DNA of 64,000 bases from Escherichia phage saus132: sequence record NC_047884.1. The stretch is one strand, 5' to 3'. Every line of letters begins with the position of its first letter. Position 1 is the first letter of the stretch. A program made the position numbers and the translations under genes. The notes under the pieces are model-generated. The model was not told the DNA's origin and searched no databases. It worked only from the letters and a program-made list of their open reading frames with translations. This document shows positions 4,600 to 62,577 of this stretch, piece after piece.

Positions 4600-4690
4600 T
4601 GGTGTTGGATGATGGAGTCGAACCACCCGAGACCCTTCCGAGTCGGCAGATTTACAGTCTACTTCGCTACCTCTACGATACTAATCCAAC
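4600..4690 (-). tRNA. tRNA-Tyr (GUA), long variable arm
   Basis: Acceptor GTTGGAT/ATCCAAC, anticodon arm GTAGA-CTGTAAA-TCTGC, long variable arm, T arm GGTGG-TTCGACT-CCATC, 91 nt with CCA. Confidence 0.75.
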
Positions 4691-4814
4691 ATATTTGAAT
4701 GAAAAGTAAGTCGGTTAAACTCAAGGTGGAATATTTCAGGATTTCCTGACTTTACCCCTAAAAGCAACTCGCTTAATTACTTCTCATTCAGATATGTTTC
4801 CAAATTAGATAAAT

Positions 4815-4843
4815 ATTATATCAAGTTTTAAGGCACTGAGCAA
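4815..4843 (-). promoter_or_regulatory. promoter for tRNA block Tyr-Glu-Trp-Phe; -35 overlaps a 12-bp-stem hairpin (4833-4871)
   Basis: Minus strand -35 TTGCTC, 17 bp, -10 TATAAT; inverted repeat GCACTGAGCAAG/CTTGCTCAGTGC. Confidence 0.5.
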
Positions 4844-4879
4844 GTCAAATTTTAAAGAACTTGCTCAGTGCTGTATCAG

Positions 4880-5173
4880 TTAATCAAATGAAGGAGTGAC
4901 TTTCAAAGTGAATGGAAGTTCGAATACCTCTTCACCTTCATCAGTAACAGTGACTACTCGACCCTCTAGCTTATTCATGCTGATTTCAACATCAGCCGTA
5001 GCATCAGGAGCCATACCAGCCTCAATACATTGAGCTTTGATCTCTGGAAGAAGTTCTACATTGTAGAAATAAAGCCACTCGATCTCACCTTCCCAACCAC
5101 CCCAGGATTTACATACTGAGCTTTCAATACCAGTTGCTGCAAAACGTTTTAACATTCTGATTCCTCTCATCAA
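4880..5173 (-). CDS. hypothetical protein (97 aa)
   Basis: ORF downstream of early promoter cassette. Confidence 0.5.
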   Translation of the reverse strand: MMRGIRMLKRFAATGIESSVCKSWGGWEGEIEWLYFYNVELLPEIKAQCIEAGMAPDATADVEISMNKLEGRVVTVTDEGEEVFELPFTLKVTPSFD

Positions 5174-7213: not shown

Positions 7214-7510
7214 TTACTGAACACTGCACTGATACACTTGTTTGATACGTGTCACTGACTTCTTAGTTGGATTGATAGAAGAACCTTGCCACCAACGTGA
7301 TTCTGAGCTGAGAACAGCACCAGGAACAGCTTGTTCTTTTGGCAGAACAATATCAAAACATTGCTCACCCATATTATCTTTAATGTGTGACCAAATATCC
7401 AAAGTAAATCGTTCTAGCTTATTACAAACTTGAACTTGACAAAGTTCCTGTTGTGGAGCAGCAAATACAGAAGTAGATACTAGAGTCAATGCAAGTACAA
7501 TGCGTTTCAT
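7214..7510 (-). CDS. small secreted protein (98 aa) with cleavable signal peptide
   Basis: MKRIVLALTLVSTSVFAAPQQ signal-like N-terminus; start moved to ATG after SD GAGAGAGG (track start is a TTG inside the UTR). Confidence 0.5.
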   Translation of the reverse strand: MKRIVLALTLVSTSVFAAPQQELCQVQVCNKLERFTLDIWSHIKDNMGEQCFDIVLPKEQAVPGAVLSSESRWWQGSSINPTKKSVTRIKQVYQCSVQ

Positions 7511-7540
7511 ATTTGATTCCTCTCTCAAATTTATAAATAT

Positions 7541-7569
7541 ATTATACAGAAATTTTCTATATTAAGCAA
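7541..7569 (-). promoter_or_regulatory. early promoter cassette
   Basis: Minus strand -35 TTGCTT, 17 bp, -10 TATAAT, then ATATATTTATAAATTTGAGAGAGG UTR with SD. Confidence 0.65.
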
Positions 7570-7616
7570 GTGAAAATTTCTGTATAATAGCCCTCTAAGC
7601 GAGGGCTATAACTACT

Positions 7617-8309
7617 TTATTTGTTAACGCGTACAAAGTATCCTTTATAGGCTCCCATAATAGAGTTACCTAAGAATACTAGCCACATTGCTAGGATTGC
7701 ATAAGATGCACCTGTAGATTGAGCAGTTACAAGCCAAATGTATACAGTACCAATGTTAATAGCAATCCAGATCAGCCATTGTTCAGCATATTGTTTGACC
7801 ATAAGCCACATAGCAATCACACTACCAACCGCAGTAAATGCGTCAAGCATTGGGAATGGATCAGCGGTAGTAGCAAGGAAGCTGCCGTAACCTAAAGTAG
7901 CTACTGCTAGAATCCCTAGAGTCAGCAGAGCTTGGGCTTTAGTCAGAACCTTAGTTGGAACATCTGGCAGATTACTTGGCTTATTTTTATGCCATAAGTA
8001 CATTCCATAAAACTGCATAGGAACGTAGTATAGCAGGTTTAGTGCAGCGTTACCATAAAGATCTGCGTTTAAAGCTGTAATACCATATGTAAGAACACCC
8101 ACTAAGCCCCAAATATAGTTGGAAACACGTCCTTTTGCAACCAGAATAACACAAACCACATTGGTTATTGCAGTAGCCCAATCTAGAGCTGTACCATTAT
8201 AGTTTGCTAAACTAATGAAGACAACCGCTATGAACAGCCACAGATATTCCAGAGGTTTCCAGTTTTTAAAGTCATTTACGAGATAGTTAGTCATATTAAA
8301 ACTCTCCAA
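7617..8309 (-). CDS. pnuC: PnuC-like nicotinamide riboside transporter (230 aa)
   Basis: Size and multi-helix hydrophobic profile typical of PnuC; directly downstream of and overlapping the NadR-like gene. Confidence 0.65.
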   Translation of the reverse strand: MESFNMTNYLVNDFKNWKPLEYLWLFIAVVFISLANYNGTALDWATAITNVVCVILVAKGRVSNYIWGLVGVLTYGITALNADLYGNAALNLLYYVPMQFYGMYLWHKNKPSNLPDVPTKVLTKAQALLTLGILAVATLGYGSFLATTADPFPMLDAFTAVGSVIAMWLMVKQYAEQWLIWIAINIGTVYIWLVTAQSTGASYAILAMWLVFLGNSIMGAYKGYFVRVNK

Positions 8310-9351
8310 CGTTAAAGTGATGAATCAGCCAGTCTACTGCGTTTACTGCTTCGTCCATACGAACTTTGTAGTCCGGGGAGTCGATGTAAACAGTACGCCC
8401 TTCAGGGAACTGATTTGGAAATTCTTTCTTCATCTGCTCGAACAGTTCAGAAGTAATTGAACGATCGGAGTTAATACGTAAACCATCATCTACCCACTTG
8501 ACAGTAGGCGCTAGAACAATTACTAAATCGTAATGTTCTTCTTTTGCAATTGCTGTAACCACAGGGTTCTTACTATGTTCATAAAGTCTGTGGTAGAACT
8601 CAGTAATAAAAGCATTTGTATCCACAAACATGATCTTATTTGCAGTACGTTCTGCTTCAAACTCTAGCTCTTTGTGTCTGAACGCAATTTTACTATAGTC
8701 TTCGCTGGTAAGCAGATTTTCGTTACCAACTAGATCAACTTCACAATACGTTCGGCCATATTCTTCTACCCACGAAGTGTTGTATAGCTTCGCAAGGTAT
8801 TTTGTTAAAGTAGTCTTTCCTGAGCTTTCAGTCCCAATGATTACAACCTTACGCACGTAATCTTTACGAACTACGCTAGGAAGAAACTCCCAATACTTCA
8901 TAAGATCATTACGAATCATTGTAGCTGAGATTGGAACACGAGTCCGATCAGAATCTACAATATAATGACCAAACTTCGGCAGATATTTCTTATATTCTGC
9001 ATCATAGTCTAGTTCGCTAGAGAAAATGGTGATCTCAGGCAAATGTCCGTAATTTTCATTAAGGATTCTAGCATATTCCGGCCAACCATTCGGATATTCA
9101 GGAATATCATCTTCAATAGTGTACTCTACCGAAATGTGCTCAATATCCGCGTAAGTTTGTTCTAACCAACGAAGTCGATTCTTTAACTGTAATACTTCCT
9201 GATCACGTGTGTTCTGCTTATCCAACCAACGATTATCATGACTAACTACAACAATAACTCGTTCACACATAGTTGCTGCTGTGTTTATTAGGTTAATATG
9301 ACCACGCGTTAATGGTGCGAACTTACCAATTACTAGACCAGTCTTAATCAT
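8296..9351 (-). CDS. nadR: NadR-like bifunctional NMN adenylyltransferase / ribosylnicotinamide kinase
   Basis: N-terminal GKFAPLTRGH nucleotidyltransferase motif; C-terminal P-loop GTESSGKTTL; start taken at ATG after SD, not the track start inside the promoter. Confidence 0.75.
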   Translation of the reverse strand: MIKTGLVIGKFAPLTRGHINLINTAATMCERVIVVVSHDNRWLDKQNTRDQEVLQLKNRLRWLEQTYADIEHISVEYTIEDDIPEYPNGWPEYARILNENYGHLPEITIFSSELDYDAEYKKYLPKFGHYIVDSDRTRVPISATMIRNDLMKYWEFLPSVVRKDYVRKVVIIGTESSGKTTLTKYLAKLYNTSWVEEYGRTYCEVDLVGNENLLTSEDYSKIAFRHKELEFEAERTANKIMFVDTNAFITEFYHRLYEHSKNPVVTAIAKEEHYDLVIVLAPTVKWVDDGLRINSDRSITSELFEQMKKEFPNQFPEGRTVYIDSPDYKVRMDEAVNAVDWLIHHFNVGEF

Positions 9352-9381
9352 ATTTGATTCCTCTCTCAAATTTATAAATAT

Positions 9382-9410
9382 ATTATACAGAGAATTTAGC
9401 ATTCAAGCAA
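9382..9410 (-). promoter_or_regulatory. early promoter cassette for nadR-pnuC operon
   Basis: 29-nt block identical to the cassette at 7541; -35 TTGCTT, 17 bp, -10 TATAAT. Confidence 0.65.
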
Positions 9411-9562
9411 TCGAATTTTTTAACTTTTTAGTGGAAAAAATCTCAAGGCATTTAGTGGTAGCACGTTGTTGCTACAATAATAGTATATGATTCTAAAGAA
9501 TTAAAGAATTAAATACTAAAGACCTTAGTTGAATAACTTATGGGCTTTTCTTTTGCCTTAAA

Positions 9563-9601
9563 TACAGAAAAGCCCGCGCTCTCGGAGGAAACGCGGGCTT
9601 A
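9563..9601 (-). terminator. rho-independent terminator after SPFH gene
   Basis: GC-rich hairpin AAGCCCGCG...CGCGGGCTT then U-run on minus strand. Confidence 0.7.
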
Positions 9602-9623
9602 TTTCGAAGATTACGTGTAACTA

Positions 9624-10568
9624 TTACTTATTACGCATATCCATAATCATCTGGCCATCATAACCAGTACCTACAACAGTCTGAGGAACGCCACCCTGAT
9701 ATTTTTCAGCGCGTTTCATATCAACTTCCAGCTGTTTCCAGCGAATCATCTCTGGAGTGATGGTACGCTGCAGAGCGGTGTTAGCTTCAGCTTCTTTCTT
9801 AGCCGCATACAGTTTAGCATCTGCGTCACGTTCGTTAGCTACTGCCATATTTTCACGAGCAGAACGATCAGCCTCAGCTTGCTTAACTTTCTGCTGTGCT
9901 TCTTGTTCAACACGAGCTAGTTCAGCTTTTGCAGCGTTAACTTGTTCTTCACGAACTTTGGTGTTTTGTACCTGTTCCATGATTACCGGTGGCAGAGTAA
10001 TATCCTGAAGGAATACTTGCTTAACGGTGTAGCCATAAGGACGCGCATACTCTTCTACTTCTTGCTGAATAGCGGTTTGCAGTTGAGCCTGAATCTTAGC
10101 GTCGAACAGATCTTGTGCTTTTGGTACAGACTTACCAAACTCACGAATCGTAGACAGCATCTTCTCTTCAACGTACTTGTTCAGAGCTTGATCCTGAGTA
10201 CCTGCGTTAACACGGTTCATAGGAGCTTTAGCACCATCAAACTGCAACATAACGGTAATGTCAACTGTAGACTTAAACTTATCCTGGCTAGGAACCTGAA
10301 GTTTATCCAGTTTCATAGAAATATCTTTCGTACTAAAAGTATCAAAAGAGGCGAATGGGTTGACAATATGGAACCCCGGCAATACAGGATTAGGACTAAC
10401 TTTACCCAGGAAAGTCTGAGTTTTAACCGTACCGTCCTGAACAACTGTATAGGAATTGAGAGCCAGAATAAGAGCGCCAAGACCAACTACAGCACCAACA
10501 CCCCAACGTTTAATAGTACGAATTACTTTTTGATCGGAAGTCAGTTCTTTAGTGTTTTTAGTAAACAT
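9624..10568 (-). CDS. SPFH/band-7 (HflK/C, prohibitin-like) membrane protein
   Basis: N-terminal TM helix, central SPFH-like region, C-terminal Ala/Glu/Gln-rich coiled coil; rho-independent terminator downstream. Confidence 0.6.
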   Translation of the reverse strand: MFTKNTKELTSDQKVIRTIKRWGVGAVVGLGALILALNSYTVVQDGTVKTQTFLGKVSPNPVLPGFHIVNPFASFDTFSTKDISMKLDKLQVPSQDKFKSTVDITVMLQFDGAKAPMNRVNAGTQDQALNKYVEEKMLSTIREFGKSVPKAQDLFDAKIQAQLQTAIQQEVEEYARPYGYTVKQVFLQDITLPPVIMEQVQNTKVREEQVNAAKAELARVEQEAQQKVKQAEADRSARENMAVANERDADAKLYAAKKEAEANTALQRTITPEMIRWKQLEVDMKRAEKYQGGVPQTVVGTGYDGQMIMDMRNK

Positions 10569-10579
10569 ATATTTCCTTA

Positions 10580-10780
10580 TTATTTAGAAGAGTTAGCTAC
10601 TACAGTTACTTTAGTTGCAGAAATAAACAGGCTAGCATCCACAGCAAATTCAGGAGCTTTGATATCTCCGTTATGAAATATGACTATACCGGAGACTACT
10701 TCAAATGCTAGCGCTGTAACATCGGTGGTATTTACTTGTGAATGTTCACCTACTACTTTTACTATATATCGTGTTTTCAC
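10580..10780 (-). CDS. hypothetical protein (66 aa)
   Basis: Short ORF between SPFH gene and tRNA-Arg. Confidence 0.35.
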   Translation of the reverse strand: MKTRYIVKVVGEHSQVNTTDVTALAFEVVSGIVIFHNGDIKAPEFAVDASLFISATKVTVVANSSK

Positions 10781-10806
10781 TTTATTTTCCTAGCAGTTAA
10801 TAAAAT

Positions 10807-10881
10807 TGGCCGAGGTGACAGGATTCGAACCTGCATAAAGGAATTTAGAAGACTCCTGCCTATCCCTTAGACTACACCCCG
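10807..10881 (-). tRNA. tRNA-Arg (UCU)
   Basis: Acceptor CGGGGTG/CACCTCG, anticodon arm GGAGT-CTTCTAA-ATTCC, T arm GCAGG-TTCGAAT-CCTGT, CCA encoded. Confidence 0.7.
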
Positions 10882-11740
10882 TTTAGGTATTTTTAAGAAC
10901 TCTTATAAAAGCTCTTAAAGATACCCGACGGTAGGTAGGGTCAGCCCCCTCAGATTAAGCTCTGCAGCCCTTCCGTCAGACAATATCTTCCAGTTTAAGT
11001 CAGGGTGACTTTGTGGTTATGTTCTCCGTATGTGAAGAACTCGGTTAGGCTTAGGTCATGACTCCCAGCCTACTGCTGCCGCTCAACAGGAATTATCGCG
11101 AATTACCTGTACTATTGGGCACCATTAGTGACATCTCTCATGTCAGCGTTTCCCACTCTCATATTCACGCGGTCTGTTAGAATCGCACCTCCGATTTTCG
11201 ATGCGAAGCTGGATGCCTAGTCTCAGGTTAAACGGGGCACACACTAGGCAGTGATCCCGAGTTCCGAGTTTGGTTGAGGCCGTCAGGTTTCCTCGTGGTT
11301 TAGCTGTTTCGATTCTAACCTAATACTGATCAGGTGGCGTACCTCCTGAACTGTCATAGTATGTACTCCAGCAGCGAATGCTTATCCGGTATAAGCCCGA
11401 GTTATCTGATTCTTTCCGACCGCAGGATTCGAACCTGCATCTTCCACCAGTTACGGTTTGATATTACCGTTTATACTAGGACGGCAGTGTTATCACATAA
11501 GTCAGTTCGACACCCCACTAACATAAACTAGAGAAGAGTTTACGAGATTTCGGGACAGCTCCCGAGTTTTCCGCAGATTTTCAGTTCCCTATCAATAGCA
11601 ATAAGCGTTAGCTCGTAGCCTCTCTCAGAGTACTTACTAGTCTCCAACTCACCGACTCTATTCAGTGGAATAGCTATCCTAGTAGGAATCACTAAACTCA
11701 CTCAGCGTAATCGGCTCGCTGTTCTCTAATTTATGAATCT

Positions 11741-11769
11741 ATTATACAGAATTTTGAGGCGTTTAGCAA
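11741..11769 (-). promoter_or_regulatory. early promoter facing an 860-nt ORF-free region and tRNA-Arg
   Basis: Minus strand -35 TTGCTA, 17 bp, -10 TATAAT. Confidence 0.6.
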
Positions 11770-11777
11770 ATCAATTT

Positions 11778-12221
11778 TTAATTAAATTCGCCAGCAACCT
11801 GAGCAGCAATGCCACCGTCGTAACGACCAGGAAACTCTTCCTTAATCGCTTTCATCAGCATACCTTTTGTAATCCCAGGGTTCAACTTAACTAATTCTGC
11901 AAAGTATTTGCGAATCTCAGAATCAGATAACTGAGGCGGCAGATACTGTTGTAGCCATTTGTTCAGTATATACTCATACTGAGCAGACTGCAAGCTATAA
12001 TTATCAAGGTCTTGACCGTGAAGTTTAGCTTTCGTCTGATTAATGCTTTTCAGTTGAGCTTTTAGATAAGATACAAACTGTTCAGAAGTAATGAAGTCTT
12101 TATCAACACGCTGAAGATCTCCGATTATGGTCTGGTAGCTTTTAGCTACTTCTTTATCAGAACCATCAACCTTAGATTCCTGCAAAGCCCTACGCAAAAC
12201 ATCTAGAATATTCTCTTCCAT
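11778..12221 (-). CDS. hypothetical protein (147 aa)
   Basis: ORF; no recognisable motif. Confidence 0.5.
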   Translation of the reverse strand: MEENILDVLRRALQESKVDGSDKEVAKSYQTIIGDLQRVDKDFITSEQFVSYLKAQLKSINQTKAKLHGQDLDNYSLQSAQYEYILNKWLQQYLPPQLSDSEIRKYFAELVKLNPGITKGMLMKAIKEEFPGRYDGGIAAQVAGEFN

Positions 12222-37754: not shown

Positions 37755-37949
37755 ATGGCAATAACACTTCCAAAGATTCAAGCAAAACTTAATTTGCTCT
37801 CCATAGCAAGAATCAATTACCAGGATAGTATCGGCACTCCAAACCAGAAAGCGTACAAAGATGCGTGGTTGAAAGAAGCTGCTGATTTAGCTGGTATGGC
37901 TGCGCAGTATAGTAAAGAACTCAAAATGGAAATCGCAGATGATGAATAA
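37755..37949 (+). CDS. hypothetical protein (64 aa)
   Basis: ATG directly after upstream TAA, SD GAGGT 9 nt upstream. Confidence 0.4.
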   Translation: MAITLPKIQAKLNLLSIARINYQDSIGTPNQKAYKDAWLKEAADLAGMAAQYSKELKMEIADDE

Positions 37950-38913
37950 TGTAAAAGACTTTATTAAACGTTGTCAAGAAGCGTACTACCAGGGAATGAG
38001 TCTTATTTCCGATGAAGAATATGATCGTCTGATTAAAAGATTCCCACTAGAGGAAGAAATCGGACCGAAAGGTGATATCCCTCATTTGTATCGTATGTAT
38101 TCTTTGCAGAAAGTCTATTACGATCGTGGTGATAAAGCTCCATTCAACCCACTTGGTCAGGTTGAAACTGATAAGTTAGATGGTTGTGCGATTTCTCTAT
38201 TATATATTAATGGTGAATTTATTCAAGCGTTAACTCGTGGTAACGGTATTCTAGGGAATGATGTAACGCATAATGTTAAAATGCTGAACATCCCTAAAAC
38301 TATCTCCCAAAAAGTTCCAACTCAAATCACTGGTGAAGTTCTCATCACTAAAGAAGTAGAGAACAAACGTAACTATGCTTCCGGTGCTATTAACTTGAAA
38401 GATAGTGATGATTTCATGCAACGTATTGGTGAAGGTGGTTTAATCTTCGTTGCATATGGTATCCAGTGTTCAGCGGAAACAGTCGGTATTACAGAAGCCT
38501 ATTTAAAAGATATGCTTTGGCTAGAGAATGAGAACTTCTTGACAGTTGTTAATGTTCGTTCCTTCTTTAAGTGGATTCCGACGGATGGTAAAGTTGTTCG
38601 TATTAATGATAACAACAAATTCTTCCGTGAAGGTTGGACTAATAAATTTCCTCGCGGTGCATTTGCTATTAAAGAGGATGAAGAAGGCGAAATTACCACA
38701 CTTGTTAAAGTTGAATGGCAAGTAGGGGCTTCTGGTAAAGTAACTCCAGTTGGTTATTTCGAACCGGTGATTATTGATGATGCCACAATCGTTAAAGCAA
38801 CTCTTAATAACGTTGATTATATTAACGCTCTCGATTTAGAGATCGGTTGCCAGATTCGAGTGATTCGTGCTGGTGGTGTAATCCCTTGTATAGTAGAGCG
38901 AGTATACGACTAA
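37939..38913 (+). CDS. NAD-dependent DNA ligase, adenylation-domain part
   Basis: KxDG adenylation motif (VETDKLDGCAIS). Confidence 0.75.
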   Translation: MMNNVKDFIKRCQEAYYQGMSLISDEEYDRLIKRFPLEEEIGPKGDIPHLYRMYSLQKVYYDRGDKAPFNPLGQVETDKLDGCAISLLYINGEFIQALTRGNGILGNDVTHNVKMLNIPKTISQKVPTQITGEVLITKEVENKRNYASGAINLKDSDDFMQRIGEGGLIFVAYGIQCSAETVGITEAYLKDMLWLENENFLTVVNVRSFFKWIPTDGKVVRINDNNKFFREGWTNKFPRGAFAIKEDEEGEITTLVKVEWQVGASGKVTPVGYFEPVIIDDATIVKATLNNVDYINALDLEIGCQIRVIRAGGVIPCIVERVYD

Positions 38914-39115: not shown

Positions 39116-39895
39116 ATGAAAATCGAAATTCCAACACAATGTCCCTCTTGTGGTTCTAAGCTAGATCTTGTCAACGGGCAATTATTCTGTAGGAATAAGT
39201 CCAACTGTCCAGCACAATCAAGTAAGTTAATCGAGAACTTCTGCACAAAAATGAAGTTAAAGGGCTTTGGCCCGAAAACTATTGAGAAGCTGGAACTGAC
39301 TAAGATCTCAGAACTGTTTTACCTGACCGAAGAAGATTTGGTCGGAGCTGTGGGTAGCAAGGTTGCCGCTAAGTTGATTAGCGAGTTAAATACTAAGGTT
39401 CGCGGAGACATTGACTTTGGTTCGGTTCTCGGTTCTTTAGGAATTCCTCTTATTGGAGAGGTTGCAGCAAAGAAACTGTCCCAAAATTGCACTAGCTTCC
39501 ACGATGTGAAGGCTGACGGCAAGGCTGGAGAAAATTACAAAACCTGGCTAAATTCCCCACAAGGCAAGGATGTTATTGAATTACCATGGAAATTCTCAAC
39601 TGGTATTCGAGGTACTAAAGCTGATATCATCATTACGGATGATTTAGTTGCCCAGCCAAATGGAATCACGATCTGTATTACCGGATCTTTGCAAGATTTT
39701 GCAAATCGAACGGATGCAACAAACTATTTAGAAAGTCTAGGATATACGGTTAAGAAATCCGTTACCAAAGACGTCAAATACCTAATCTGTGAGGATGAAT
39801 CAAAACGTTCTTCCTCATCTTATAAGAAAGCCGAAACGAATGGGATAGAAATCCTGTCGATTAAAGAACTATTGGAGAAAAATAATAATGTCTAA
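39116..39895 (+). CDS. NAD-dependent DNA ligase, C-terminal part (zinc finger, HhH, BRCT-like)
   Basis: Cys4 site CPSCGSKL...CRNKSNCP; own promoter and SD upstream. Confidence 0.7.
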   Translation: MKIEIPTQCPSCGSKLDLVNGQLFCRNKSNCPAQSSKLIENFCTKMKLKGFGPKTIEKLELTKISELFYLTEEDLVGAVGSKVAAKLISELNTKVRGDIDFGSVLGSLGIPLIGEVAAKKLSQNCTSFHDVKADGKAGENYKTWLNSPQGKDVIELPWKFSTGIRGTKADIIITDDLVAQPNGITICITGSLQDFANRTDATNYLESLGYTVKKSVTKDVKYLICEDESKRSSSSYKKAETNGIEILSIKELLEKNNNV

Positions 39896-54314: not shown

Positions 54315-55640
54315 TTATGAGTTATCTGGCGTAATGAGCTCGCTCACAAGTTTTTTCAGTTCGTCTAGCTCTTGTTCTAAAGTAGCAACTTTTAGTTTCA
54401 ATTCGTCTGTTTCCTTCTGTTGCTTATCATTATCCTCAATTATTTCTTTAATTGCGTTGGTGAGTAACGCCGTCACACCTGCATAGTTAATTGAAAGATA
54501 ATCCGTGTCTGCTACTTTGTAGACAGCTTCTGGTAAAACAGTTACAACGTCTTGAGCAATTAAACCAGCTTCTTCCGTGTAAAAAGAATGTTCGTTTTCC
54601 TCTAAGCTATTACGTTTGAAGTAGGTGTATCCCTGTAAGACTTTAACTTTATCTTTTGCGGATACTATTTCTTTTAACTGAGCTTTAAGGCGTATATCAG
54701 ATGTGCTTTGCCATGCGACGGCCGTAGCTTGTCCCGCGCTATTGAAACCATAAGATGTATTTCCAACTAGAAGACGCTGGTAGGGGTTCCCATCCCCATA
54801 AATAACAACATCAGCGCCAGATGCAAAAGTATCACCCCATCTAACTGATTTCCAAATATTTACACCGCCGTCCCTAGACGGGATTTCCACTAACAGACCA
54901 GCCGCCCGATCTCGCCATTCACCATGACCGCCAGCTTGCACTTGACCCGCTATAAGCGCACTACCGGCCCCAGCACGAACACCGTATACATACATACCAC
55001 GAGAGTCATTAGGCGCTGAACTGGAGATAGCGCGTAGGGTGGAAAATCCATTCCCATTAAAAGTACAGAGATTAAGTGAATCGGTATAAACATCTAAAAC
55101 ACCATCACTACGCTGTGCAAATCCAGTGTCACTATCACCAATAGCAATAGATCGAGCACCTAAACCCTGTGCGTCACCCGGAGTACCAATTGACATACGA
55201 TCGGTTACTGCTAATGTTGCTGTACGGGATTTGCCAGAAACACCCAAAGCGTTAATAGATAAAAGCCCTGAATTATTGAACGTACAATATGATTCTATAT
55301 TATTTGATAGATTCTTAGTGTGAATTACGGTTTGGGTTTCACCAGTGGCACCATTAATCGCATTATAAAAACGCGATTGGGAACGTGCCGAGCCTGACGT
55401 AGAATATAATGTACTATGATAGATCCCACCATTAGTAGATTCAATATCATAACGAGTAAGAGCATTAACACCGCTAAAGGTAACAGTTTGACCTTCGCCT
55501 AATCGAAGATTAGTACGAGCACCGTTTACATCTGTTGCACCTGTACCGCCAGCACCAATAGGAAGAGCTGATGTAGCGTTATCGCTATTTCTAGCAACTC
55601 GCCAATCGCCATTATTAGCAATCCGGAGTTCATATGTGGC
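54315..55640 (-). pseudogene. ltf: L-shaped tail fibre distal segment with C-terminal S74 chaperone domain; in frame with upstream segment, no own ATG/SD
   Basis: 442 sense codons directly after the TAA in the same frame; Gly-rich fibre sequence; C-terminal TSDIRLK...coiled coil matches the autoproteolytic chaperone-domain signature. Confidence 0.65.
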
Positions 55641-57242
55641 TTATGGGTTAGTAAATGCGTTATAATCACCTAAAGTAGTTCCAGTTGTTTGTCTAACAGA
55701 ATCAACGCCGAGATTCCCTCGAGCTGAAACTTTATCTGTAAGGTCCGCGAGGTTCTGGTCCTTTTTCAAAGACGCTTGCATAACCTGTGCTGCAGATGCA
55801 GCCGCTGTCTCCGCTCTATCTGCTGCACTGGTGGCGTTAGTAGCTTTCTCACTTGCCGTTGTAGCGCTACCAGCGGCCTCTGTAGCCTTTTGCGTAGCTG
55901 TGGTAGCCTTTTGTGTAGCTAAAGCCGCAGCATCTTCTGCTGCTTCTCTCAGCGGTGTCATTGCGTTCAGTGATTCAGTTTTAGCAGTATTAATAGCGTT
56001 AACACCAGCGACCTTGGCTGTGTTAACACCACCAATCGCGCTAGATTTAGCACTTCCTATTGCCGTTAACGCTGCGTCTTTTGACTGGGTAATGCTGGTT
56101 GTTGCATCCGTTTTAGCGGTATTAATTTCTCCAACAGCACCGTCTTTAATAGTTTGCGTGTCGCTCTTTAACTGCTCAACGTCGGACTTAAGATTCTGTA
56201 CTGTGATCACAGCTTGCATAGCAGTACTCGCGCTACCTGATGCAGCTTGTTGAGCTAACTTAGCAGCGTCTTCACTAGCTTTTGAGTTAATTTCGCTAGT
56301 CTTTGCATTAGTTTCTGAATTTTTTGCTGCTAATGCTGATGTAGAGGCTTGTGTAGCGAATGTTTCTGCTTCATCTCTGAATCCTTTGGATTCAGAGGCA
56401 GAGGCAGCGGATAGGGCAGCATTAGTCTCACTATTTTTTGCTGCTGCTGCATATGCTGCTGCATTAGTCTCACTAGTTTTTGCCTTAGTCTCACTAGTTT
56501 TTGCATTAGTCTCACTAGTTTTTGCATTAGTCTCACTAGTTTTTGCCTTAGTCTCACTAGTTTTTGCATTAGTCTCACTAGTTTTTGCTGCTATTTGTGA
56601 TGTAGCAGCAGCATTTTTACTTGCTAATGCATTAGTTTCGCTAGTAGCAGCATTCATAGCCGAAGTAGCTGCCGCTAATTCGGAAGCTTTAGCGTTAGTC
56701 TCTGAAACTTCAGCGTTAGTCTCAGAAGTTTTTGCTGCTGTTTGTGAAGCTGCTGCCGCATTTTTACTTGCTAATGCATTAGTTTCAGAAGTCTTGGCAT
56801 TAGTCTCAGAAGTTTTTGCGTTAGTTTCAGAAGTTTTTGCTGCGTTTTTGCTTGCTAAAGCTGCTATTTCAGAAGCCTTAGCACTAGTTTCAGAAGTCTT
56901 GGCATTAGTTTCTGAAGTTTTAGCATTTGTAGCAGAAGTTGCTGCGGCTGTTTGAGAGGCGGCAGCTGCATTTTTACTAGTTAATGCATTAGTCTCGGAA
57001 GTCTTAGCGTTTGTCTCAGAAGTTTTTGCATTGATTTCTGATGTTTTTGCAGCATTCTCAGAATCTTTTGCTGCCGCAGCAGAAGCAGCAGAGGCCTCAA
57101 CAGCCGCTGTTAGTTGACCAGCAGTAATAGAACTAATAGAATTACCTAAAACTACTGTATATTTAGGATACTTACTAGCAGTAGTTGTAGTGTCATCTAT
57201 GTTCAGAGTCTGCTGTACAATAATTTTAGTTTTAAGTGCCAT
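55641..57242 (-). CDS. ltf: L-shaped tail fibre, N-terminal 533-codon segment ending at in-frame TAA (55641-55643)
   Basis: Fibrous Ala/Thr/Ser/Asn-rich heptad repeats; first gene after the pb4-like gene; frame continues past the TAA. Confidence 0.7.
   Translation of the reverse strand: MALKTKIIVQQTLNIDDTTTTASKYPKYTVVLGNSISSITAGQLTAAVEASAASAAAAKDSENAAKTSEINAKTSETNAKTSETNALTSKNAAAASQTAAATSATNAKTSETNAKTSETSAKASEIAALASKNAAKTSETNAKTSETNAKTSETNALASKNAAAASQTAAKTSETNAEVSETNAKASELAAATSAMNAATSETNALASKNAAATSQIAAKTSETNAKTSETKAKTSETNAKTSETNAKTSETKAKTSETNAAAYAAAAKNSETNAALSAASASESKGFRDEAETFATQASTSALAAKNSETNAKTSEINSKASEDAAKLAQQAASGSASTAMQAVITVQNLKSDVEQLKSDTQTIKDGAVGEINTAKTDATTSITQSKDAALTAIGSAKSSAIGGVNTAKVAGVNAINTAKTESLNAMTPLREAAEDAAALATQKATTATQKATEAAGSATTASEKATNATSAADRAETAAASAAQVMQASLKKDQNLADLTDKVSARGNLGVDSVRQTTGTTLGDYNAFTNP
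56419..57080. repeat. tandem 21-bp repeat array inside ltf (6 near-perfect copies 56461-56586, degenerate copies flanking), encoding heptad repeats of type TSETNAK
   Basis: Direct reading: GCATTAGTCTCACTAGTTTTT / GCCTTAGTCTCACTAGTTTTT repeated head-to-tail. Confidence 0.85.
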
Positions 57243-57664
57243 TATTTAGTTACTCCATCGCTGATGTATACTTTACCTTCCATAATACGGAAAGAATTGA
57301 CTTCAGAGCCAATCACATCACGAGTCATTAGGATATCATAATAACCAGCAAAACGTTGTCTTGGGTTATACTTATCACGTTCTTTAGATGCTTTTTCACC
57401 AATATTAGTAGTGTCTACAATGGAAAGACTAATTGCAGCAGCACCTTGAGCAGCATCAATAACATGAGTTTTAAAGTTAGCTAGAACCTCGGCGTTCTCA
57501 TCTAGACTAGATTTAATAGTTCCTCGGAGTGAATATCCGGTTAAGTTAATAGGAACTTCTGTTGGTGGATATACACTGTCGTCAACATCCATAAACTGCA
57601 TGATAAGACCATAAGGCACTTTCTCATCAACAATAATATCAATAACTCGGTTTTCTGTACTCAT
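57242..57664 (-). CDS. small tail protein (140 aa), possibly collar/fibre-attachment
   Basis: Position between pb4-like and ltf genes; 1-nt ATGA overlap with ltf. Confidence 0.4.
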
Positions 57665-59727: not shown

Positions 59728-62577
59728 TTAAATAGATGCCCAATCCACAGATTGCTCGCCATTATCACCTTCTGCTCTTATACGGAAGCGTAACTTCCTA
59801 TTAATACCTAGAGCATCCTCGTTATGAAGAGCATAGTCTGCCTTATTGTATATCAGTAGATAATCGTAGACATACTGATCTTCAATTCGTACACTTCTTA
59901 ATAAACGATCTAGGTTATCGTAGATTTCGAGAGTGTAGAAGATTCCATCAATGATATCTTCTTCTGGAATTCTATCCCAGGCCAACTTAACGTCTGGTCC
60001 TACAAACTCCGATGCATCTCCTGAAGCTGTATTAGTAACCCTGAAATTACTAACGACGCTTAAGTTTTTAGCAGAGTTAAGTTCTACCGATAGTGTTACA
60101 GGAGAACTTCGTCTACCATTAATATCTACAGCTCTAATCTCAAAGACTGCTAAACCAGCAGGTTCTCCAATAATTTCTTGGATCATTCGTAGATTTGGAT
60201 TAGTTTCTAGTTGCTGTACGATATAAGGATCAGCATGTCCAGAATGAACGATGGAGTAATAAACAACGTTATTAGTTAAGCTAGGAAGCCAAGATAGCTC
60301 ACCATTCTTACCAATAGATCCTACTTGTCCACCCGGTGTTGGTGTGTACATAAAGTCTCTAGGGGGCAGTACGTTATTACTAACATCAGGGATATCGTTA
60401 CCACTATTATCAACCTGCTCGGAGTTAATGAATACATCCTCACCATACTCTTGCAGTGTAATATTAATCTTACCTTCTCTAGAGTTTTCAACTTCATCAA
60501 CTAGGAAGTATTTCTTATCCCAACCATAACGACCATATGTAAAAGCAACCGGATCGTTAGGCTCAATACCTATGAAATGATATGGTAATGAGAATGTGAG
60601 AGTTCGTGAGTAACGAGATTTTTTCAGTTCTCTATCTGCAAAGCTACGTGCAGTATAATAGTTAGTGATGTTTGCAAAAGAAAGCTGAAGTTTTTTATCT
60701 AATCCTTTATCTTGTTCTTTAAATACAGAATTAAAGAATGTGATAGAGTTAGTTTTCCAACTTAATGCAGGATCTAATATAGAGGCTTGTACTGAGTTGA
60801 ATTTATTTCTGCCAGTAGTATCTGACAATTCCAGATCACCATAGGTATCTAAGAAGTCAATCTCCAGTGGAGTATTCGAGAACTTCTCAACAGTTATTCT
60901 ATACTGACCAGATAAGTTGTTGATAGCACCCCCATAAGACTCTATTAATCCCTGCACGTTTTTAAATACTGACTCAGAGGTATCGAGAATAGTGTTCATT
61001 TGAACTATTTGTCTATTCTCTCCTACAGCATCAGTCCATCCAACGTATCTCCAGTAGGGTTGCCAAGAAACCTGATAGGATTCATCAATTATATCCAGAA
61101 TAGCTGCTTCTTGAATAAGTTGCTGGAGAGGGAACTGATCAATAGTGATATTAGCACCATAGCGATCAGAGGTTAGGTAGTCCAGAGTTTGCCAGATACC
61201 ATTTAAGCTAGTCTTATCAGCAGTTACTCTACCATCTGAATGATAGATCTTAATCTTCTTACCTTGAACTTCAGCGCTAACTTCTGGAATTTCTGTTCTG
61301 TTTTCATTAATAGTAAAGCGAACAATAGCGTAAGCAGTATCTAACAGTTTATAACGAGAGTCCCAGTATTCTGGTCCATTCTCATTCATGTTCTGTAGGT
61401 AGAAACCTTTCTCTTTTGCAATGTTAACTAGAACATCCGCAGCAGATTGGTCTGCTTTACCATGATAAGTCCAGATACGTATATCGCCATTACCATCGTT
61501 ATACCTATATTCCTGTCCATGAACAGAGGGTTCAGAGCTTGATTGACCAGAAGCAATACGTTGCATGGTATCTCCAGCTACTTTCTTAGTACCAAAGCAA
61601 GTACGAGACTTACTATCGTTAGGATCAATACAGATCATTGGTACATCACCAAAGTAGAAATCTAGAAATCCATCAATCTCACCCTCACAGAAGGCGTATA
61701 CTATATATACGATATTAGGGTTATGCAGCTCAGTATCCGCAAATACGGGGATTCCAGGGATTTTCTGAGTTCCATACACTACTGGAAGGAACTTAGCCGC
61801 TAAGTTAAAATCGATGTCAACTTCCTTAGTCACAGTCTCATAGTATTTCTTTAGGCTATAGCTTCTAGAAAGACCAAATAACTTTTTCTTAGACTGTAAC
61901 TTGTAACGCTCTTCCTGAACCTGATATTTAGCAAGAATAGAAATACTCTTGTTAGCGTGGAAGAATCCATAGTCCTCTTGATATTCAGGTCGCTTAGCAC
62001 CATTAGATGGAACTAATTGGCCAGCAACAATCTCAAGTCCCCTATGGTCAGCATCGTCTGTGAAACGTCCGTTTACTCTATCAAAGTCGTAAAACTGGTT
62101 CGAACAGTTCCATGTGATAGTGGATGTGCTAATTCCAGAAGTACCAATGTTATCCTTAATACCACCACCAGTGATTTTACCACGGAAGTAAAGTAAAGGA
62201 CCATTAGTGTCTGGATCTACAGGAAGAATGTTACCTTCTTCATCAATAACCGCTTGATGGATTGAGATGGATCTATCTAGGAATGATACACCATTTTGGA
62301 CTAGTTTTAATACTTCATCCTCAGCAGTACCTGTGATAGTAAAAGAAAGACTACCAATGGAAAGATCTCTATTTTGTTTATGTGTTGTTATAGACTTAAC
62401 CTTACCGGATGTATAAAGAATCCCATTATATCTTACATCTCTAAAATAATCTGTAAGATATATGTAGGCAGAACTTGATCCAGTAGAGCTTGGCAATTCA
62501 AGAGTAATAAGGCATGCAGTTTTTATTTTATTATTAGTTCTTAAATACTCTCTTGCACTGTCAAGAATTTTCTTCAT
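59728..62577 (-). CDS. baseplate hub protein, T5 pb3-like (949 aa)
   Basis: Length identical to T5 pb3 as recalled; gene order. Confidence 0.6.
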   Translation of the reverse strand: MKKILDSAREYLRTNNKIKTACLITLELPSSTGSSSAYIYLTDYFRDVRYNGILYTSGKVKSITTHKQNRDLSIGSLSFTITGTAEDEVLKLVQNGVSFLDRSISIHQAVIDEEGNILPVDPDTNGPLLYFRGKITGGGIKDNIGTSGISTSTITWNCSNQFYDFDRVNGRFTDDADHRGLEIVAGQLVPSNGAKRPEYQEDYGFFHANKSISILAKYQVQEERYKLQSKKKLFGLSRSYSLKKYYETVTKEVDIDFNLAAKFLPVVYGTQKIPGIPVFADTELHNPNIVYIVYAFCEGEIDGFLDFYFGDVPMICIDPNDSKSRTCFGTKKVAGDTMQRIASGQSSSEPSVHGQEYRYNDGNGDIRIWTYHGKADQSAADVLVNIAKEKGFYLQNMNENGPEYWDSRYKLLDTAYAIVRFTINENRTEIPEVSAEVQGKKIKIYHSDGRVTADKTSLNGIWQTLDYLTSDRYGANITIDQFPLQQLIQEAAILDIIDESYQVSWQPYWRYVGWTDAVGENRQIVQMNTILDTSESVFKNVQGLIESYGGAINNLSGQYRITVEKFSNTPLEIDFLDTYGDLELSDTTGRNKFNSVQASILDPALSWKTNSITFFNSVFKEQDKGLDKKLQLSFANITNYYTARSFADRELKKSRYSRTLTFSLPYHFIGIEPNDPVAFTYGRYGWDKKYFLVDEVENSREGKINITLQEYGEDVFINSEQVDNSGNDIPDVSNNVLPPRDFMYTPTPGGQVGSIGKNGELSWLPSLTNNVVYYSIVHSGHADPYIVQQLETNPNLRMIQEIIGEPAGLAVFEIRAVDINGRRSSPVTLSVELNSAKNLSVVSNFRVTNTASGDASEFVGPDVKLAWDRIPEEDIIDGIFYTLEIYDNLDRLLRSVRIEDQYVYDYLLIYNKADYALHNEDALGINRKLRFRIRAEGDNGEQSVDWASI

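What the first reader, a model, noticed from the sequence alone, without database searches (positions are those of the whole stretch)
54315..57242. Single in-frame TAA splits the L-shaped tail-fibre gene; chaperone domain stranded downstream
Seen in sequence: the minus-strand frame from 57242 to 54315 is one continuous 976-codon frame except for one TAA at 55641-55643. The 442 codons after it have no in-frame ATG or SD for 130 codons and end in a TSDIRLK...coiled-coil segment. Established knowledge: that segment matches the autoproteolytic intramolecular chaperone (S74-type) domain needed to fold trimeric fibres. Inference: either a natural or lab-acquired ochre mutation giving a fibre-less phage (viable for T5-like phages), or a stop that is read through, or a sequencing error.
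Basis: partly seen in the sequence, partly recalled or inferred. Interest (0 to 1): 0.7.

Follow-up and report, generated by a model that had tools for sequence, protein, structure and literature searches.

The report
Ochre-truncated lateral tail fibre gene
A single C-to-T change has put a stop codon in the middle of this T5-like phage's side tail fibre gene; this is a known, already published loss-of-function mutation that such phages tolerate, and probably gain from, when grown on laboratory E. coli K-12.

Summary
The window is an exact copy of phage poul149 (MF431738, bases 32001-96000). The minus-strand frame 57242-54315 has 976 codons with one internal TAA at 55641-55643 (codon 534). Four sister isolates that are almost identical genome-wide carry CAA (Gln) there. 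Homologous fibres in other phages read straight through this position in one gene. The two halves match the two ends of one tail-fibre family profile. The stranded 3' part carries the receptor-binding module and a Peptidase_S74 chaperone domain.

No suppressor tRNA, restart codon or conserved stop supports readthrough. Best reading: a real ochre mutation that leaves a 533-residue stub lacking both the receptor-binding tip and the chaperone.

The isolation paper already reports this stop (Svab et al. 2018, PMC5816814). These phages were isolated and grown on rough E. coli K-12 C600/MG1655. On C600, fibre-less mutants of related phages arise readily (Golomidova et al. 2016, PMC4728585).

One modest addition: three independent ochre mutations hit the fibre apparatus among the 12 isolates. 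One lies in pork27's collar gene, which that paper called "unknown function". This pattern suggests selection for fibre loss. Verdict: real, ordinary, already known.

The parts
57242..57664 (-). Collar protein gene for lateral-fibre attachment (p132 / LtfC), 140 aa, intact. Its stop codon overlaps the fibre gene's ATG by one base.
   Evidence: PDB sequence hits to T5 p132 (7qg9_R, E=4e-62) and its DT57C counterpart (8hqz_Q, E=1e-81). Pfam PF23926 LtfC, 52.5 bits against a cut-off of 27.
55641..57242 (-). 5' fragment of the lateral tail fibre gene (ltfA / pb1 orthologue): 533 sense codons plus the premature TAA. This is the only part expected to be translated. It holds the collar-binding N-terminus and the Ala/Ser/Thr/Glu-rich repeat shaft.
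   Evidence: Residues 1-231 match DT57C LtfA (8hqz_d, E=1e-34). Residues 1-205 are 57% identical to T5 pb1 (E=9e-34). phrog_5481, profile positions 133-529 of 1043, E=2e-145.
57063..57242 (-). Conserved N-terminal ~60 codons ([41 protein letters not shown]...), shared with T5 pb1 and DT57C LtfA. The role as collar-attachment end is inferred from these homologues.
   Evidence: Alignments.
55641..55643 (-). The premature ochre codon TAA (codon 534). It is CAA (Gln) in chee130_1, saus176N, cott162 and chee158. The change is a C-to-T transition on the coding strand (G-to-A at MF431738 position 87643).
   Evidence: Gln is conserved in the tiwna Stf alignment. Listed as 'Q443*' in Table 3B of PMC5816814.
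54315..55640 (-). Stranded 3' part of the fibre gene: 441 sense codons plus the natural stop. It contains the distal receptor-binding module and the chaperone domain, and is predicted not to be translated.
   Evidence: It is 45-51% identical to the C-terminal parts of single long fibre genes in Bas26 GreteKellenberger, Sds2 and T1-like tiwna. phrog_5481, profile positions 719-1042 of 1043, E=8e-117. No in-frame start with a Shine-Dalgarno sequence.
54318..54701 (-). Intramolecular chaperone domain (Peptidase_S74 type), residues 848-975 of the full frame. Thr847-Ser848 is the predicted cleavage site and Lys853 lies at +5. A C-terminal heptad-like helix follows.
   Evidence: Pfam PF13884. PDB 6f45_A, the chaperone part of S16 gp37, E=9e-14. 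TSDIRLK lines up with T5 pb1 T1263-S1264...K1269. The catalytic roles of those T5 residues come from PMC4690869.
54942..54950 (-). Codons 765-767. Sister isolates carry further changes here: chee158 has an independent CAA-to-TAA at codon 767, and cott162 has A765T. In this window the codons are the intact GCG ... CAA.
   Evidence: Table 3B of PMC5816814.
54315..55196 (-). Deposited CDS P149_0130 ('tail fibers protein', 293 aa, starting at the first in-frame ATG). This is probably an annotation artefact of the split gene.
   Evidence: Annotation. No Shine-Dalgarno-like sequence upstream of the ATG at 55196.
56460..56939 (-). 21-bp tandem repeats (56460-56588 and 56776-56939) that encode the KTSETNA-type heptads of the fibre shaft.
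   Evidence: translation.

Best explanation
This is a genuine loss-of-function ochre mutation (CAA to TAA at Gln534) in the single lateral (L-shaped) tail fibre gene of the T5-like phage poul149.

Shown: translation must stop after 533 residues. The product keeps the collar-binding N-terminus and the repeat shaft. It lacks the distal receptor-binding module and the C-terminal S74 intramolecular chaperone.

Inferred: in T5 pb1 and related fibres that chaperone drives trimer folding. Virions should therefore carry either no lateral fibres or blunt stubs that cannot bind a receptor.

The phage stays viable for three reasons. Its central receptor-binding protein is intact. Lateral fibres of T5-like phages only assist adsorption through O-antigen, so they are dispensable on rough hosts. 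The fibre gene is also the last gene of its minus-strand operon, so the stop causes no polarity on essential genes.

Inferred: the allele was tolerated, and probably enriched, because the phage was isolated and repeatedly propagated on O-antigen-less E. coli K-12 (C600, MG1655). Fibre-less mutants of related phages are known to arise at high frequency on C600. When the mutation arose is not resolved; I put roughly 0.55 on laboratory propagation and 0.35 on before isolation. The confidence given here (0.88) is for the core claim, a real inactivating nonsense mutation in one gene.
For: - Identity: the window is identical to MF431738 32001-96000.
- Ancestral codon: four sister genomes have CAA at codon 534.
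- Few other differences: poul149 and chee130_1 differ genome-wide at only 6 unique positions. Only two of these are in the window: this one and an intergenic one.
- One gene, not two: both halves hit the same family profile, phrog_5481, at its two ends. Homologues are single genes spanning the site, with Gln conserved in tiwna Stf. Of 28 T5-like loci in IMG/VR (26 of them assessable), none has an ltfA split by a stop or frameshift: 20 run from the conserved N-terminus to a C-terminal chaperone domain in one ORF.
- No rescue: no in-frame restart with a Shine-Dalgarno sequence, and none of the 30 tRNAs is a suppressor.
- Chaperone stranded: Pfam S74, the Ser/Lys spacing and a PDB hit.
- Infection route intact: the receptor-binding protein matches phrog_4815 end to end.
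- No polarity: the genes after ltf are convergent.
- Literature: PMC5816814 reports this stop and the K-12 isolation and propagation. PMC4728585 found that about 30% of DT571/2 plaques grown on C600 had lost fibre function, and that an ltfA amber mutant still plaques on C600 and lacks fibres by EM. PMC4690869 states that T5 fibres are 'not absolutely necessary'.
- Parallelism: outside the terminal repeats the five genomes vary at only 4 sites, and 3 of them lie in this gene. Two of those 3 are independent nonsense changes, against 3.9% expected (P about 0.004). pork27, from the other phage group, has E59* in the collar gene. Across both groups, 6 of 9 non-repeat variable sites fall in ltfA plus the collar gene, which together make up 3.5% of the sequence (P about 1e-7). 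The group A site list comes from the paper.
Against: - No phenotype has been shown. The authors state that the stops had no effect on host range (data not shown). No EM or protein data exist for poul149 specifically.
- According to the paper, saus132 and poul149 share the stop plus two other SNPs although they came from different foods. This means the allele predates their separate purification, or that the isolates share laboratory history. A laboratory origin is therefore not proven.
- Split ltfA genes are not common among other cultured T5-like genomes: none among the 26 assessable IMG/VR loci. Propagation in the laboratory does not always select for fibre loss.
- The enrichment P-values were computed after the pattern was seen, rest on very few sites, and depend partly on a published table.
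- Whether the 533-residue fragment folds and attaches to the collar as a stub is unknown.
Confidence: 0.88

Rival explanations
1. The mutation is real, but it is a natural standing polymorphism. On this view the truncated allele was already circulating in the food-borne phage population before any laboratory step, and was not produced or enriched by growth on K-12.
For: According to the paper, saus132 and poul149 come from different foods and share the stop together with two other SNPs (595 and 50473). The 533-residue product is found on exactly two contigs. A shared derived allele implies a common ancestor that existed before the separate plaque purifications.
Against: All six 'independent' isolates of the group are identical apart from 2-5 SNPs, which points to a common recent source or shared laboratory history. 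Three independent ochre hits in the fibre apparatus among 12 K-12-propagated isolates match the documented behaviour on C600. Neither allele of this fibre module was found in IMG/VR.
Confidence: 0.3
2. The TAA is a sequencing or assembly error, and the phage really has an intact gene.
For: It is a single-base difference from four sister genomes. The raw reads could not be inspected here.
Against: The data are Illumina NextSeq 2x150 reads assembled with SPAdes, and substitution errors in a phage consensus are rare. The authors list the same base in a second, separately sequenced isolate, saus132. Two contigs on record carry the truncated product. The authors curated and tabulated the SNP explicitly.
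Confidence: 0.04
3. The stop is read through, either by programmed readthrough or by a suppressor tRNA, so that some full-length fibre is still made.
For: The downstream frame is perfectly intact. That is expected anyway for a very recent mutation. The phage carries a large tRNA set.
Against: The stop is not conserved: sister genomes have CAA and all homologues have a sense codon. No tRNA has an anticodon that reads UAA; the two Gln tRNAs have anticodons TTG and CTG. From my own knowledge: UAA followed by G is an efficient terminator in E. coli, and the supE44 (glnV44) suppressor of C600 reads only UAG. A trimeric fibre would need three readthrough products.
Confidence: 0.02
4. The locus is a genuine two-gene fibre system, with a proximal and a distal subunit whose boundary lies at this point, like LtfA/LtfB in DT57C.
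For: Some T5-like phages do have two fibre genes. Six IMG/VR loci have a shorter LtfA with no chaperone domain, followed by a separate gene that carries one.
Against: There is no start codon or ribosome-binding site for 132-149 codons after the stop. Sister genomes have one continuous gene. In every homologue the junction region aligns inside a single ORF. Both halves map to one family profile.
Confidence: 0.01

Closest known systems
Premature stops in the tail fibre gene (ORF133) of saus132, poul149 and chee158, reported by Svab et al. 2018, Front Microbiol 9:202 (PMC5816814)
   Same: It is this very mutation. Table 3B lists position 87643 G-to-A as 'Q443*' in saus132 and poul149.
   Different: The paper numbers the residue from the wrong end; it is Gln534 of 975. 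It does not identify the gene as the pb1/LtfA orthologue or note the stranded chaperone domain. It does not connect the stops with the K-12 host. It also lists pork27's E59* as a gene of unknown function, whereas that gene is the fibre-attachment collar gene.
Spontaneous and engineered LTF-less mutants of the T5-like phages DT57C and DT571/2 (Golomidova et al. 2016, PMC4728585)
   Same: Same gene family: the N-termini are nearly identical. Same propagation host, E. coli C600. About 30% of plaques had lost fibre function, and a selective advantage on C600 was suspected. The ltfA amber mutant remains viable on rough hosts and lacks fibres by EM.
   Different: Those phages have a branched two-protein fibre (LtfA plus LtfB) and known O-antigen-protected hosts on which the loss can be scored. 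For poul149 no fibre-dependent host is known and no phenotype was measured.
Classical fibre-less mutants of phage T5 (hd/ltf mutants: Saigo 1978; Heller and Braun 1979, 1982)
   Same: They show that L-shaped fibres are dispensable. The fibres only speed adsorption, by about 15-fold, through reversible O-antigen binding. This summary comes from PMC4690869; the primary papers are cited from my own knowledge.
   Different: T5 pb1 is 1396 aa with an unrelated distal domain. Only residues 1-205 and the cleavage motif align.
Laboratory lambda (lambda PaPa), which carries a frameshift in the side tail fibre gene stf, compared with Ur-lambda (Hendrix and Duda 1992; my own knowledge)
   Same: An accessory side fibre of a siphophage was inactivated by a point lesion in a laboratory lineage grown on K-12. 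The phage stayed viable, and the lesion was detected as two adjacent ORFs that form one gene in relatives.
   Different: The lesion is a frameshift, not a nonsense codon. The phage family and receptor (OmpC) are different, and the plaque-size advantage was shown experimentally.
Intramolecular chaperone of T5 pb1, endosialidases and S16 gp37 (Peptidase_S74; Garcia-Doval et al. 2015, PMC4690869)
   Same: The stranded 3' part ends in this domain, with the Thr-Ser...Lys(+5) catalytic arrangement.
   Different: In this genome the domain cannot be translated, so it is a relic.

Membership tests
T5-type lateral (L-shaped) tail fibre protein, pb1 / LtfA | N-terminal region homologous to pb1/LtfA (the end that attaches to the collar) | tested here: met
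   Residues 1-231 match DT57C LtfA (8hqz_d) at E=1e-34. Residues 1-205 are 57% identical to T5 pb1.
T5-type lateral (L-shaped) tail fibre protein, pb1 / LtfA | Gene lies immediately downstream of the p132/LtfC collar gene in the late tail operon | tested here: met
   The upstream 140-aa ORF matches p132. The gene order pb3-pb4-p132-ltf is the same as in T5.
T5-type lateral (L-shaped) tail fibre protein, pb1 / LtfA | One uninterrupted reading frame from the N-terminus to the C-terminal chaperone domain | tested here: not met
   TAA at codon 534. The feature is met in the sister genomes chee130_1, saus176N and cott162. The window therefore holds an inactivated allele of a family member.
T5-type lateral (L-shaped) tail fibre protein, pb1 / LtfA | Forms trimeric fibres on the virion and binds a surface polysaccharide | not testable with these tools
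   This needs EM, virion proteomics or adsorption assays. The receptor of this distal module is unknown.
Peptidase_S74 intramolecular chaperone domain | Match to the family profile above the curated threshold | tested here: met
   PF13884 at 40.8 and 39.3 bits against a cut-off of 22. PDB 6f45_A, chaperone part, E=9e-14.
Peptidase_S74 intramolecular chaperone domain | Catalytic Ser with Lys five residues downstream, preceded by Thr (T5: T1263-S1264...K1269) | tested here: met
   T847-S848-D-I-R-L-K853, aligned to the T5 site. Residue roles are from PMC4690869.
Peptidase_S74 intramolecular chaperone domain | Autoproteolytic release after trimer folding | not testable with these tools
   This is biochemical. 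In this genome the domain is downstream of the stop and should not be made.
Programmed stop-codon readthrough or suppression | The stop codon is conserved at the same position in relatives | tested here: not met
   CAA in four sister genomes. Sense codons in all aligned homologues.
Programmed stop-codon readthrough or suppression | A cognate suppressor tRNA is encoded by the phage | tested here: not met
   None of the 30 tRNAs has a suppressor anticodon (annotation).
Laboratory-selected fibre-less variants of T5-like phages | The phage was propagated on a host lacking the fibre's receptor (rough K-12) | tested here: met
   Isolation and at least three rounds of propagation on C600 and MG1655, according to PMC5816814.
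Laboratory-selected fibre-less variants of T5-like phages | Independent inactivating hits recur in the fibre apparatus in parallel lineages | tested here: met
   Codon 534 (poul149, and saus132 per the paper), codon 767 (chee158) and collar E59* (pork27). Enrichment P is about 1e-7; the calculation is post hoc and rough.
Laboratory-selected fibre-less variants of T5-like phages | The allele arose or rose in frequency during laboratory passage and confers an advantage there | not testable with these tools
   This needs passage or competition experiments, or early-passage sequencing. That saus132 and poul149 share the allele leaves the timing open.

The most novel reading that the evidence does not exclude
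The stop is not just a tolerated defect but one of three independent ochre hits (ltfA codon 534, ltfA codon 767, collar-protein codon 59). These hits arose in two different T5-like lineages grown on rough E. coli K-12. On this reading, lateral fibres are actively costly when their O-antigen receptor is absent, and fibre loss is positively selected within a few laboratory passages. It would follow that a noticeable share of 'wild' phage isolates in databases are already laboratory-adapted in their host-range organs.
Probability: 0.45. Interest if true: 0.3.

Novelty: already known. Interest (0 to 1): 0.15.

Why it matters
The practical value lies mainly in annotation and in handling phage stocks.

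- Annotation: the two 'tail fibers protein' CDSs of poul149 are one inactivated gene. The second CDS (P149_0130) is an artefact.
- Use of the phage: poul149 should be treated as a fibre-defective variant of chee130_1 in host-range or biocontrol work. These phages were proposed as biocontrol agents, and a missing O-antigen-binding fibre could narrow activity on smooth field strains.
- General caution: the cluster of nonsense hits in the fibre apparatus shows how isolating phages on rough K-12 strains can quickly erode accessory receptor-binding organs.

None of this changes current understanding. Dispensability of T5-type lateral fibres has been known since the 1970s, and this particular stop was published in 2018.

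Tried and rejected
- saus132 record: I tried to fetch MF431737 to check the shared stop directly, but it is not in the phage collection. I relied instead on the paper's table and on the two-contig result.
- Allele search: I scanned IMG/VR for either allele (CAA or TAA) of the 34-base junction and found no hits. The natural frequency of the allele could not be assessed.
- Two-gene hypothesis: rejected after inspecting gene structures in Bas26, Sds2, tiwna, GRNsp8, chee24 and 28 IMG/VR loci.
- Suppressor tRNA: looked for and not found.
- Downstream re-initiation: looked for and found no plausible site.
- Motif search: a first regular expression for the chaperone motif was too strict and missed most homologues. 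I replaced it with tblastn using three chaperone sequences.
- Family and structure searches: Pfam finds nothing in the N-terminal 533 residues. Weak PDB hits to RNA polymerase II CTD and to depolymerases are low-complexity repeat matches and were disregarded.
- T5 comparison: T5 pb1 shows no significant similarity to the distal module beyond the cleavage motif.
- Searches held back: I ran no structure prediction and no large protein-database search, because the answer did not depend on them.
Full report
**1. The observation**

Translating window 57242-54315 on the minus strand gives 976 codons. There is one internal stop at codon 534 (TAA, window 55641-55643) plus the terminal stop. ORF listing shows the 533-codon ORF 55641-57242. 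After it, nothing in that frame starts before a TTG at 55247. With the window's composition, a 441-codon stop-free continuation in the same frame has a chance probability of about 3e-13. The first in-frame start-like codons after the stop are TTG at +132 codons and ATG at +149. Neither is preceded by a Shine-Dalgarno-like sequence.

**2. Where the window comes from**

The region is 100% identical to "Bacteriophage T5-like poul149" (MF431738). After fetching the whole genome, the 64-kb window proved to be exactly bases 32001-96000 of that record. Four sister isolates have genomes of the same length: chee130_1, saus176N, cott162 and chee158.

- In chee130_1, saus176N and cott162 the gene is annotated as one 2928-bp CDS.
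- In poul149 it is annotated as two "tail fibers protein" CDSs.
- In chee158 it is split at a different place.

A base-by-base comparison of the gene shows three variable positions:

- Codon 534 is TAA in poul149 and CAA (Gln) in the other four.
- Codon 767 is TAA in chee158 and CAA in the others.
- Codon 765 is ACG (Thr) in cott162 and GCG (Ala) in the others.

The stop is therefore a C-to-T transition of a Gln codon.

**3. What the gene is**

The ORF immediately upstream (57242-57664, 140 aa) is the collar protein that attaches the lateral fibres. It matches T5 p132 (E=4e-62), the DT57C counterpart (E=1e-81) and Pfam LtfC.

The 533-residue fragment matches DT57C LtfA over residues 1-231 (E=1e-34). 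It is 57% identical to T5 pb1 over residues 1-205.

The 441-residue remainder is 45-51% identical to the C-terminal parts of single long lateral-fibre genes. These include Bas26 GreteKellenberger, Sds2 and the T1-like phage tiwna. It ends in a Peptidase_S74 intramolecular chaperone domain (PDB 6f45_A). Its T847-S848...K853 motif lines up with T1263-S1264...K1269 of T5 pb1. Those are the cleavage-site residues described by Garcia-Doval et al. (PMC4690869).

Both fragments hit the same family profile, phrog_5481. The first covers profile positions 133-529 and the second covers 719-1042 of 1043. They are two pieces of one gene.

**4. Is a boundary or a stop normal at this position?**

No. In the alignment of full-length homologues, tiwna Stf reads "...GDYNSFANPQASYELRIANNGEWRV..." against "...GDYNAFTNPQATYELRIANNGDWRV..." in chee130_1. 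The Gln is conserved inside an uninterrupted gene.

I also collected 28 T5-like loci from IMG/VR, using the collar protein as an anchor. Their breakdown is as follows:

- 20 have a single ORF running from the conserved N-terminus to a C-terminal chaperone domain.
- 6 have a different architecture: a shorter LtfA with no chaperone domain, and a chaperone-bearing gene further downstream.
- 1 is cut by the contig end.
- 1 could not be assessed.

None of the 26 assessable loci shows a fibre gene split in frame like this one. In the loci where the segment around codon 534 finds a match, it aligns contiguously in the fibre frame.

**5. Can the stop be bypassed?**

- The phage's tRNAs (18 in the window, the remainder just upstream) include no suppressor. 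The two Gln tRNAs have anticodons TTG and CTG.
- The stop is not conserved in relatives.
- From my own knowledge, UAA followed by G terminates efficiently in E. coli. The supE44 suppressor of C600 reads only UAG.
- There is no plausible restart site.

The distal module and the chaperone should therefore not be made.

**6. Is it a sequencing error?**

Probably not. The genomes were sequenced on Illumina NextSeq (2x150) and assembled with SPAdes. The authors list the same base in a second isolate, saus132. Exactly two contigs on record carry the identical 533-residue product. I could not inspect the reads.

**7. It is already published**

Svab et al. 2018 (PMC5816814) list this change in their Table 3B. 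Position 87643 G-to-A is given as "Q443*" in saus132 and poul149. They also list 86944 ("Q210*", chee158) and 86950 ("A212T", cott162). The residues are numbered from the wrong end of the gene. The authors state that saus132, poul149 and chee158 have premature stop codons in a tail fibre gene, and that this did not seem to affect host specificity (data not shown).

I re-derived their table independently.

- poul149 and chee130_1 differ at 10 positions. These are 4 in each copy of the terminal repeat, plus 50473 and 87643.
- Megablast of the poul149 genome in five chunks gives mismatch counts for the other genomes that match the table exactly.
- Outside the terminal repeats the five genomes vary at only four sites, and three of them lie in this gene.

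**8. Why the phage tolerates it, and probably why it is there**

The phages were isolated on E. coli K-12 C600. They were then purified by at least three rounds on C600 and MG1655 to high titre. These hosts have no O-antigen.

For T5, the fibres are "not absolutely necessary" and only raise the adsorption rate about 15-fold through O-antigen binding (PMC4690869).

For the close relatives DT57C and DT571/2, Golomidova et al. (PMC4728585) report three relevant findings:

- About 30% of plaques grown on C600 had spontaneously lost fibre function. They concluded that fibre-less mutants arise at a high rate and/or have a selective advantage on C600.
- An ltfA amber mutant still plaques on C600 and on O-antigen-less mutants.
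- That mutant shows no fibres by EM.

Two features of this genome fit the same picture. The central receptor-binding protein of poul149 is intact (phrog_4815, full length). The fibre gene is the last gene of its operon and is followed by convergent genes, so no polarity is expected.

**9. A modest addition: parallel hits**

Two of the three changes in this gene are nonsense, against 3.9% expected for random substitutions (P about 0.004). Three of four non-repeat variable sites fall in 2.8% of the non-repeat sequence (P about 9e-5).

The other phage group from the same study shows a related hit. pork27 carries GAA-to-TAA (E59*) in ORF130, which the paper called a gene of unknown function. That ORF is the p132/LtfC collar gene, 87% identical to the one in this window. 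The same group also has two missense changes in its LtfA; I confirmed one of them.

Taking both groups together, 6 of 9 non-repeat variable sites lie in ltfA plus the collar gene. Those two genes make up 3.5% of the sequence, giving P of about 1e-7.

These numbers are post hoc, rest on few sites, and depend partly on the published table. Still, the pattern looks more like selection for fibre loss than mere tolerance. The classical analogue is the stf frameshift of laboratory lambda (my own knowledge).

**10. What remains open**

- When the mutation arose. The sharing between saus132 and poul149 means it predates their separate purification, or that the isolates share laboratory history.
- Whether the 533-residue fragment attaches to the collar as a stub or is degraded.
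- Which host, if any, needs this fibre.

No phenotype has been measured for poul149.

**11. Verdict**

The finding is real and correctly read. It is an ordinary loss-of-function nonsense mutation in a dispensable accessory fibre gene. The specific stop is already reported, and the phenomenon is well known in T5-like phages. Interest is low. Its practical value lies in annotation and in treating poul149 as a fibre-defective stock.

Noticed in passing
L019 (MF431731 pork27) 4648-5070, minus strand; compare L018 (chee24) 4649-5071: pork27 has GAA-to-TAA (E59*) in ORF130. The source paper lists this ORF as a gene of unknown function, but it is the p132/LtfC collar gene for lateral-fibre attachment, 87% identical to window 57242-57664. 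This is a third independent ochre hit on the fibre apparatus among the 12 isolates.
   Followed up: yes
window 54942-54950 (codons 765-767 of the fibre gene): Sister isolate chee158 has an independent CAA-to-TAA at codon 767, and cott162 has A765T two codons away. Together with codon 534, these are three of the only four variable sites outside the terminal repeats in this phage group.
   Followed up: yes
whole genomes MF431736 and MF431738-MF431741 (L010-L015): Phages reported as independent isolates from different foods, from Ukraine and Hungary, have genomes of identical length that differ by only 2-5 SNPs. This suggests a very recent common source or shared laboratory history, and it affects how 'natural' any of the SNPs are.
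   Followed up: partly
window 18473 (MF431738 position 50473): This is the only other difference between poul149 and chee130_1 inside the window. It is a T-to-C change in the intergenic region upstream of the thymidylate synthase gene, shared with saus132 according to the paper. Its function is unknown.
   Followed up: no
MF431738 595-3305 and the mirror copy 113864-116574 (outside the window): All remaining SNPs of the group cluster in the terminal repeat, in and around the A1 gene (first-step-transfer region): 7 of 11 variable sites. This is a second apparent hot spot of change.
   Followed up: no
L006 (Salmonella phage GRNsp8) 4001-6876: The GRNsp8 fibre gene is 96% identical to the window's over the first 1512 bases and then diverges, which marks a mosaic junction near codon 504. 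The gene is itself annotated as frameshifted just before its chaperone domain. This is either another broken fibre gene or a sequencing error.
   Followed up: partly
window 54318-55640; L008 (tiwna): The distal receptor-binding module is shared at 43-48% identity with side tail fibres of T1-like phages (Drexlerviridae: tiwna, Sazh, U136B and others). Fibre tips have evidently been exchanged between phage families. The receptor is unknown.
   Followed up: partly
window 56460-56588 and 56776-56939: 21-bp tandem repeats encode KTSETNA-type heptads in the fibre shaft. The repeat number differs between relatives, as shown by gaps in alignment A1, so shaft length may vary by repeat slippage.
   Followed up: no
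window 59728-62577 and 54315-55196: Deposited annotation problems. The 949-aa gene at 59728-62577 is labelled 'tail length tape-measure protein', although by size and position it corresponds to T5 pb3. P149_0130 (54315-55196) is an artefactual CDS inside the stranded part of the fibre gene.
   Followed up: partly
L033, L034, L036, L037, L040, L041 (IMG/VR T5-like loci), about 7420-12000: A clade of T5-like phages has a shorter LtfA (698-816 aa) with no chaperone domain, plus a separate downstream gene that carries one. In L041 that downstream gene appears fragmented across three reading frames.
   Followed up: no
MK809530 Salmonella phage vB_SenS_SB6: SB6 is 99.9% identical to poul149 over genome positions 25001-50000, but it does not share the distal part of the fibre gene. 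This is strong mosaicism between a Salmonella phage and these E. coli phages.
   Followed up: no
window 37942-38913 and 39116-39895 (record 69942-70913 and 71116-71895): DNA ligase is annotated as two separate CDSs with a gap of about 200 bp between them. From memory, the T5 family has a two-part ligase, but I did not check this.
   Followed up: no
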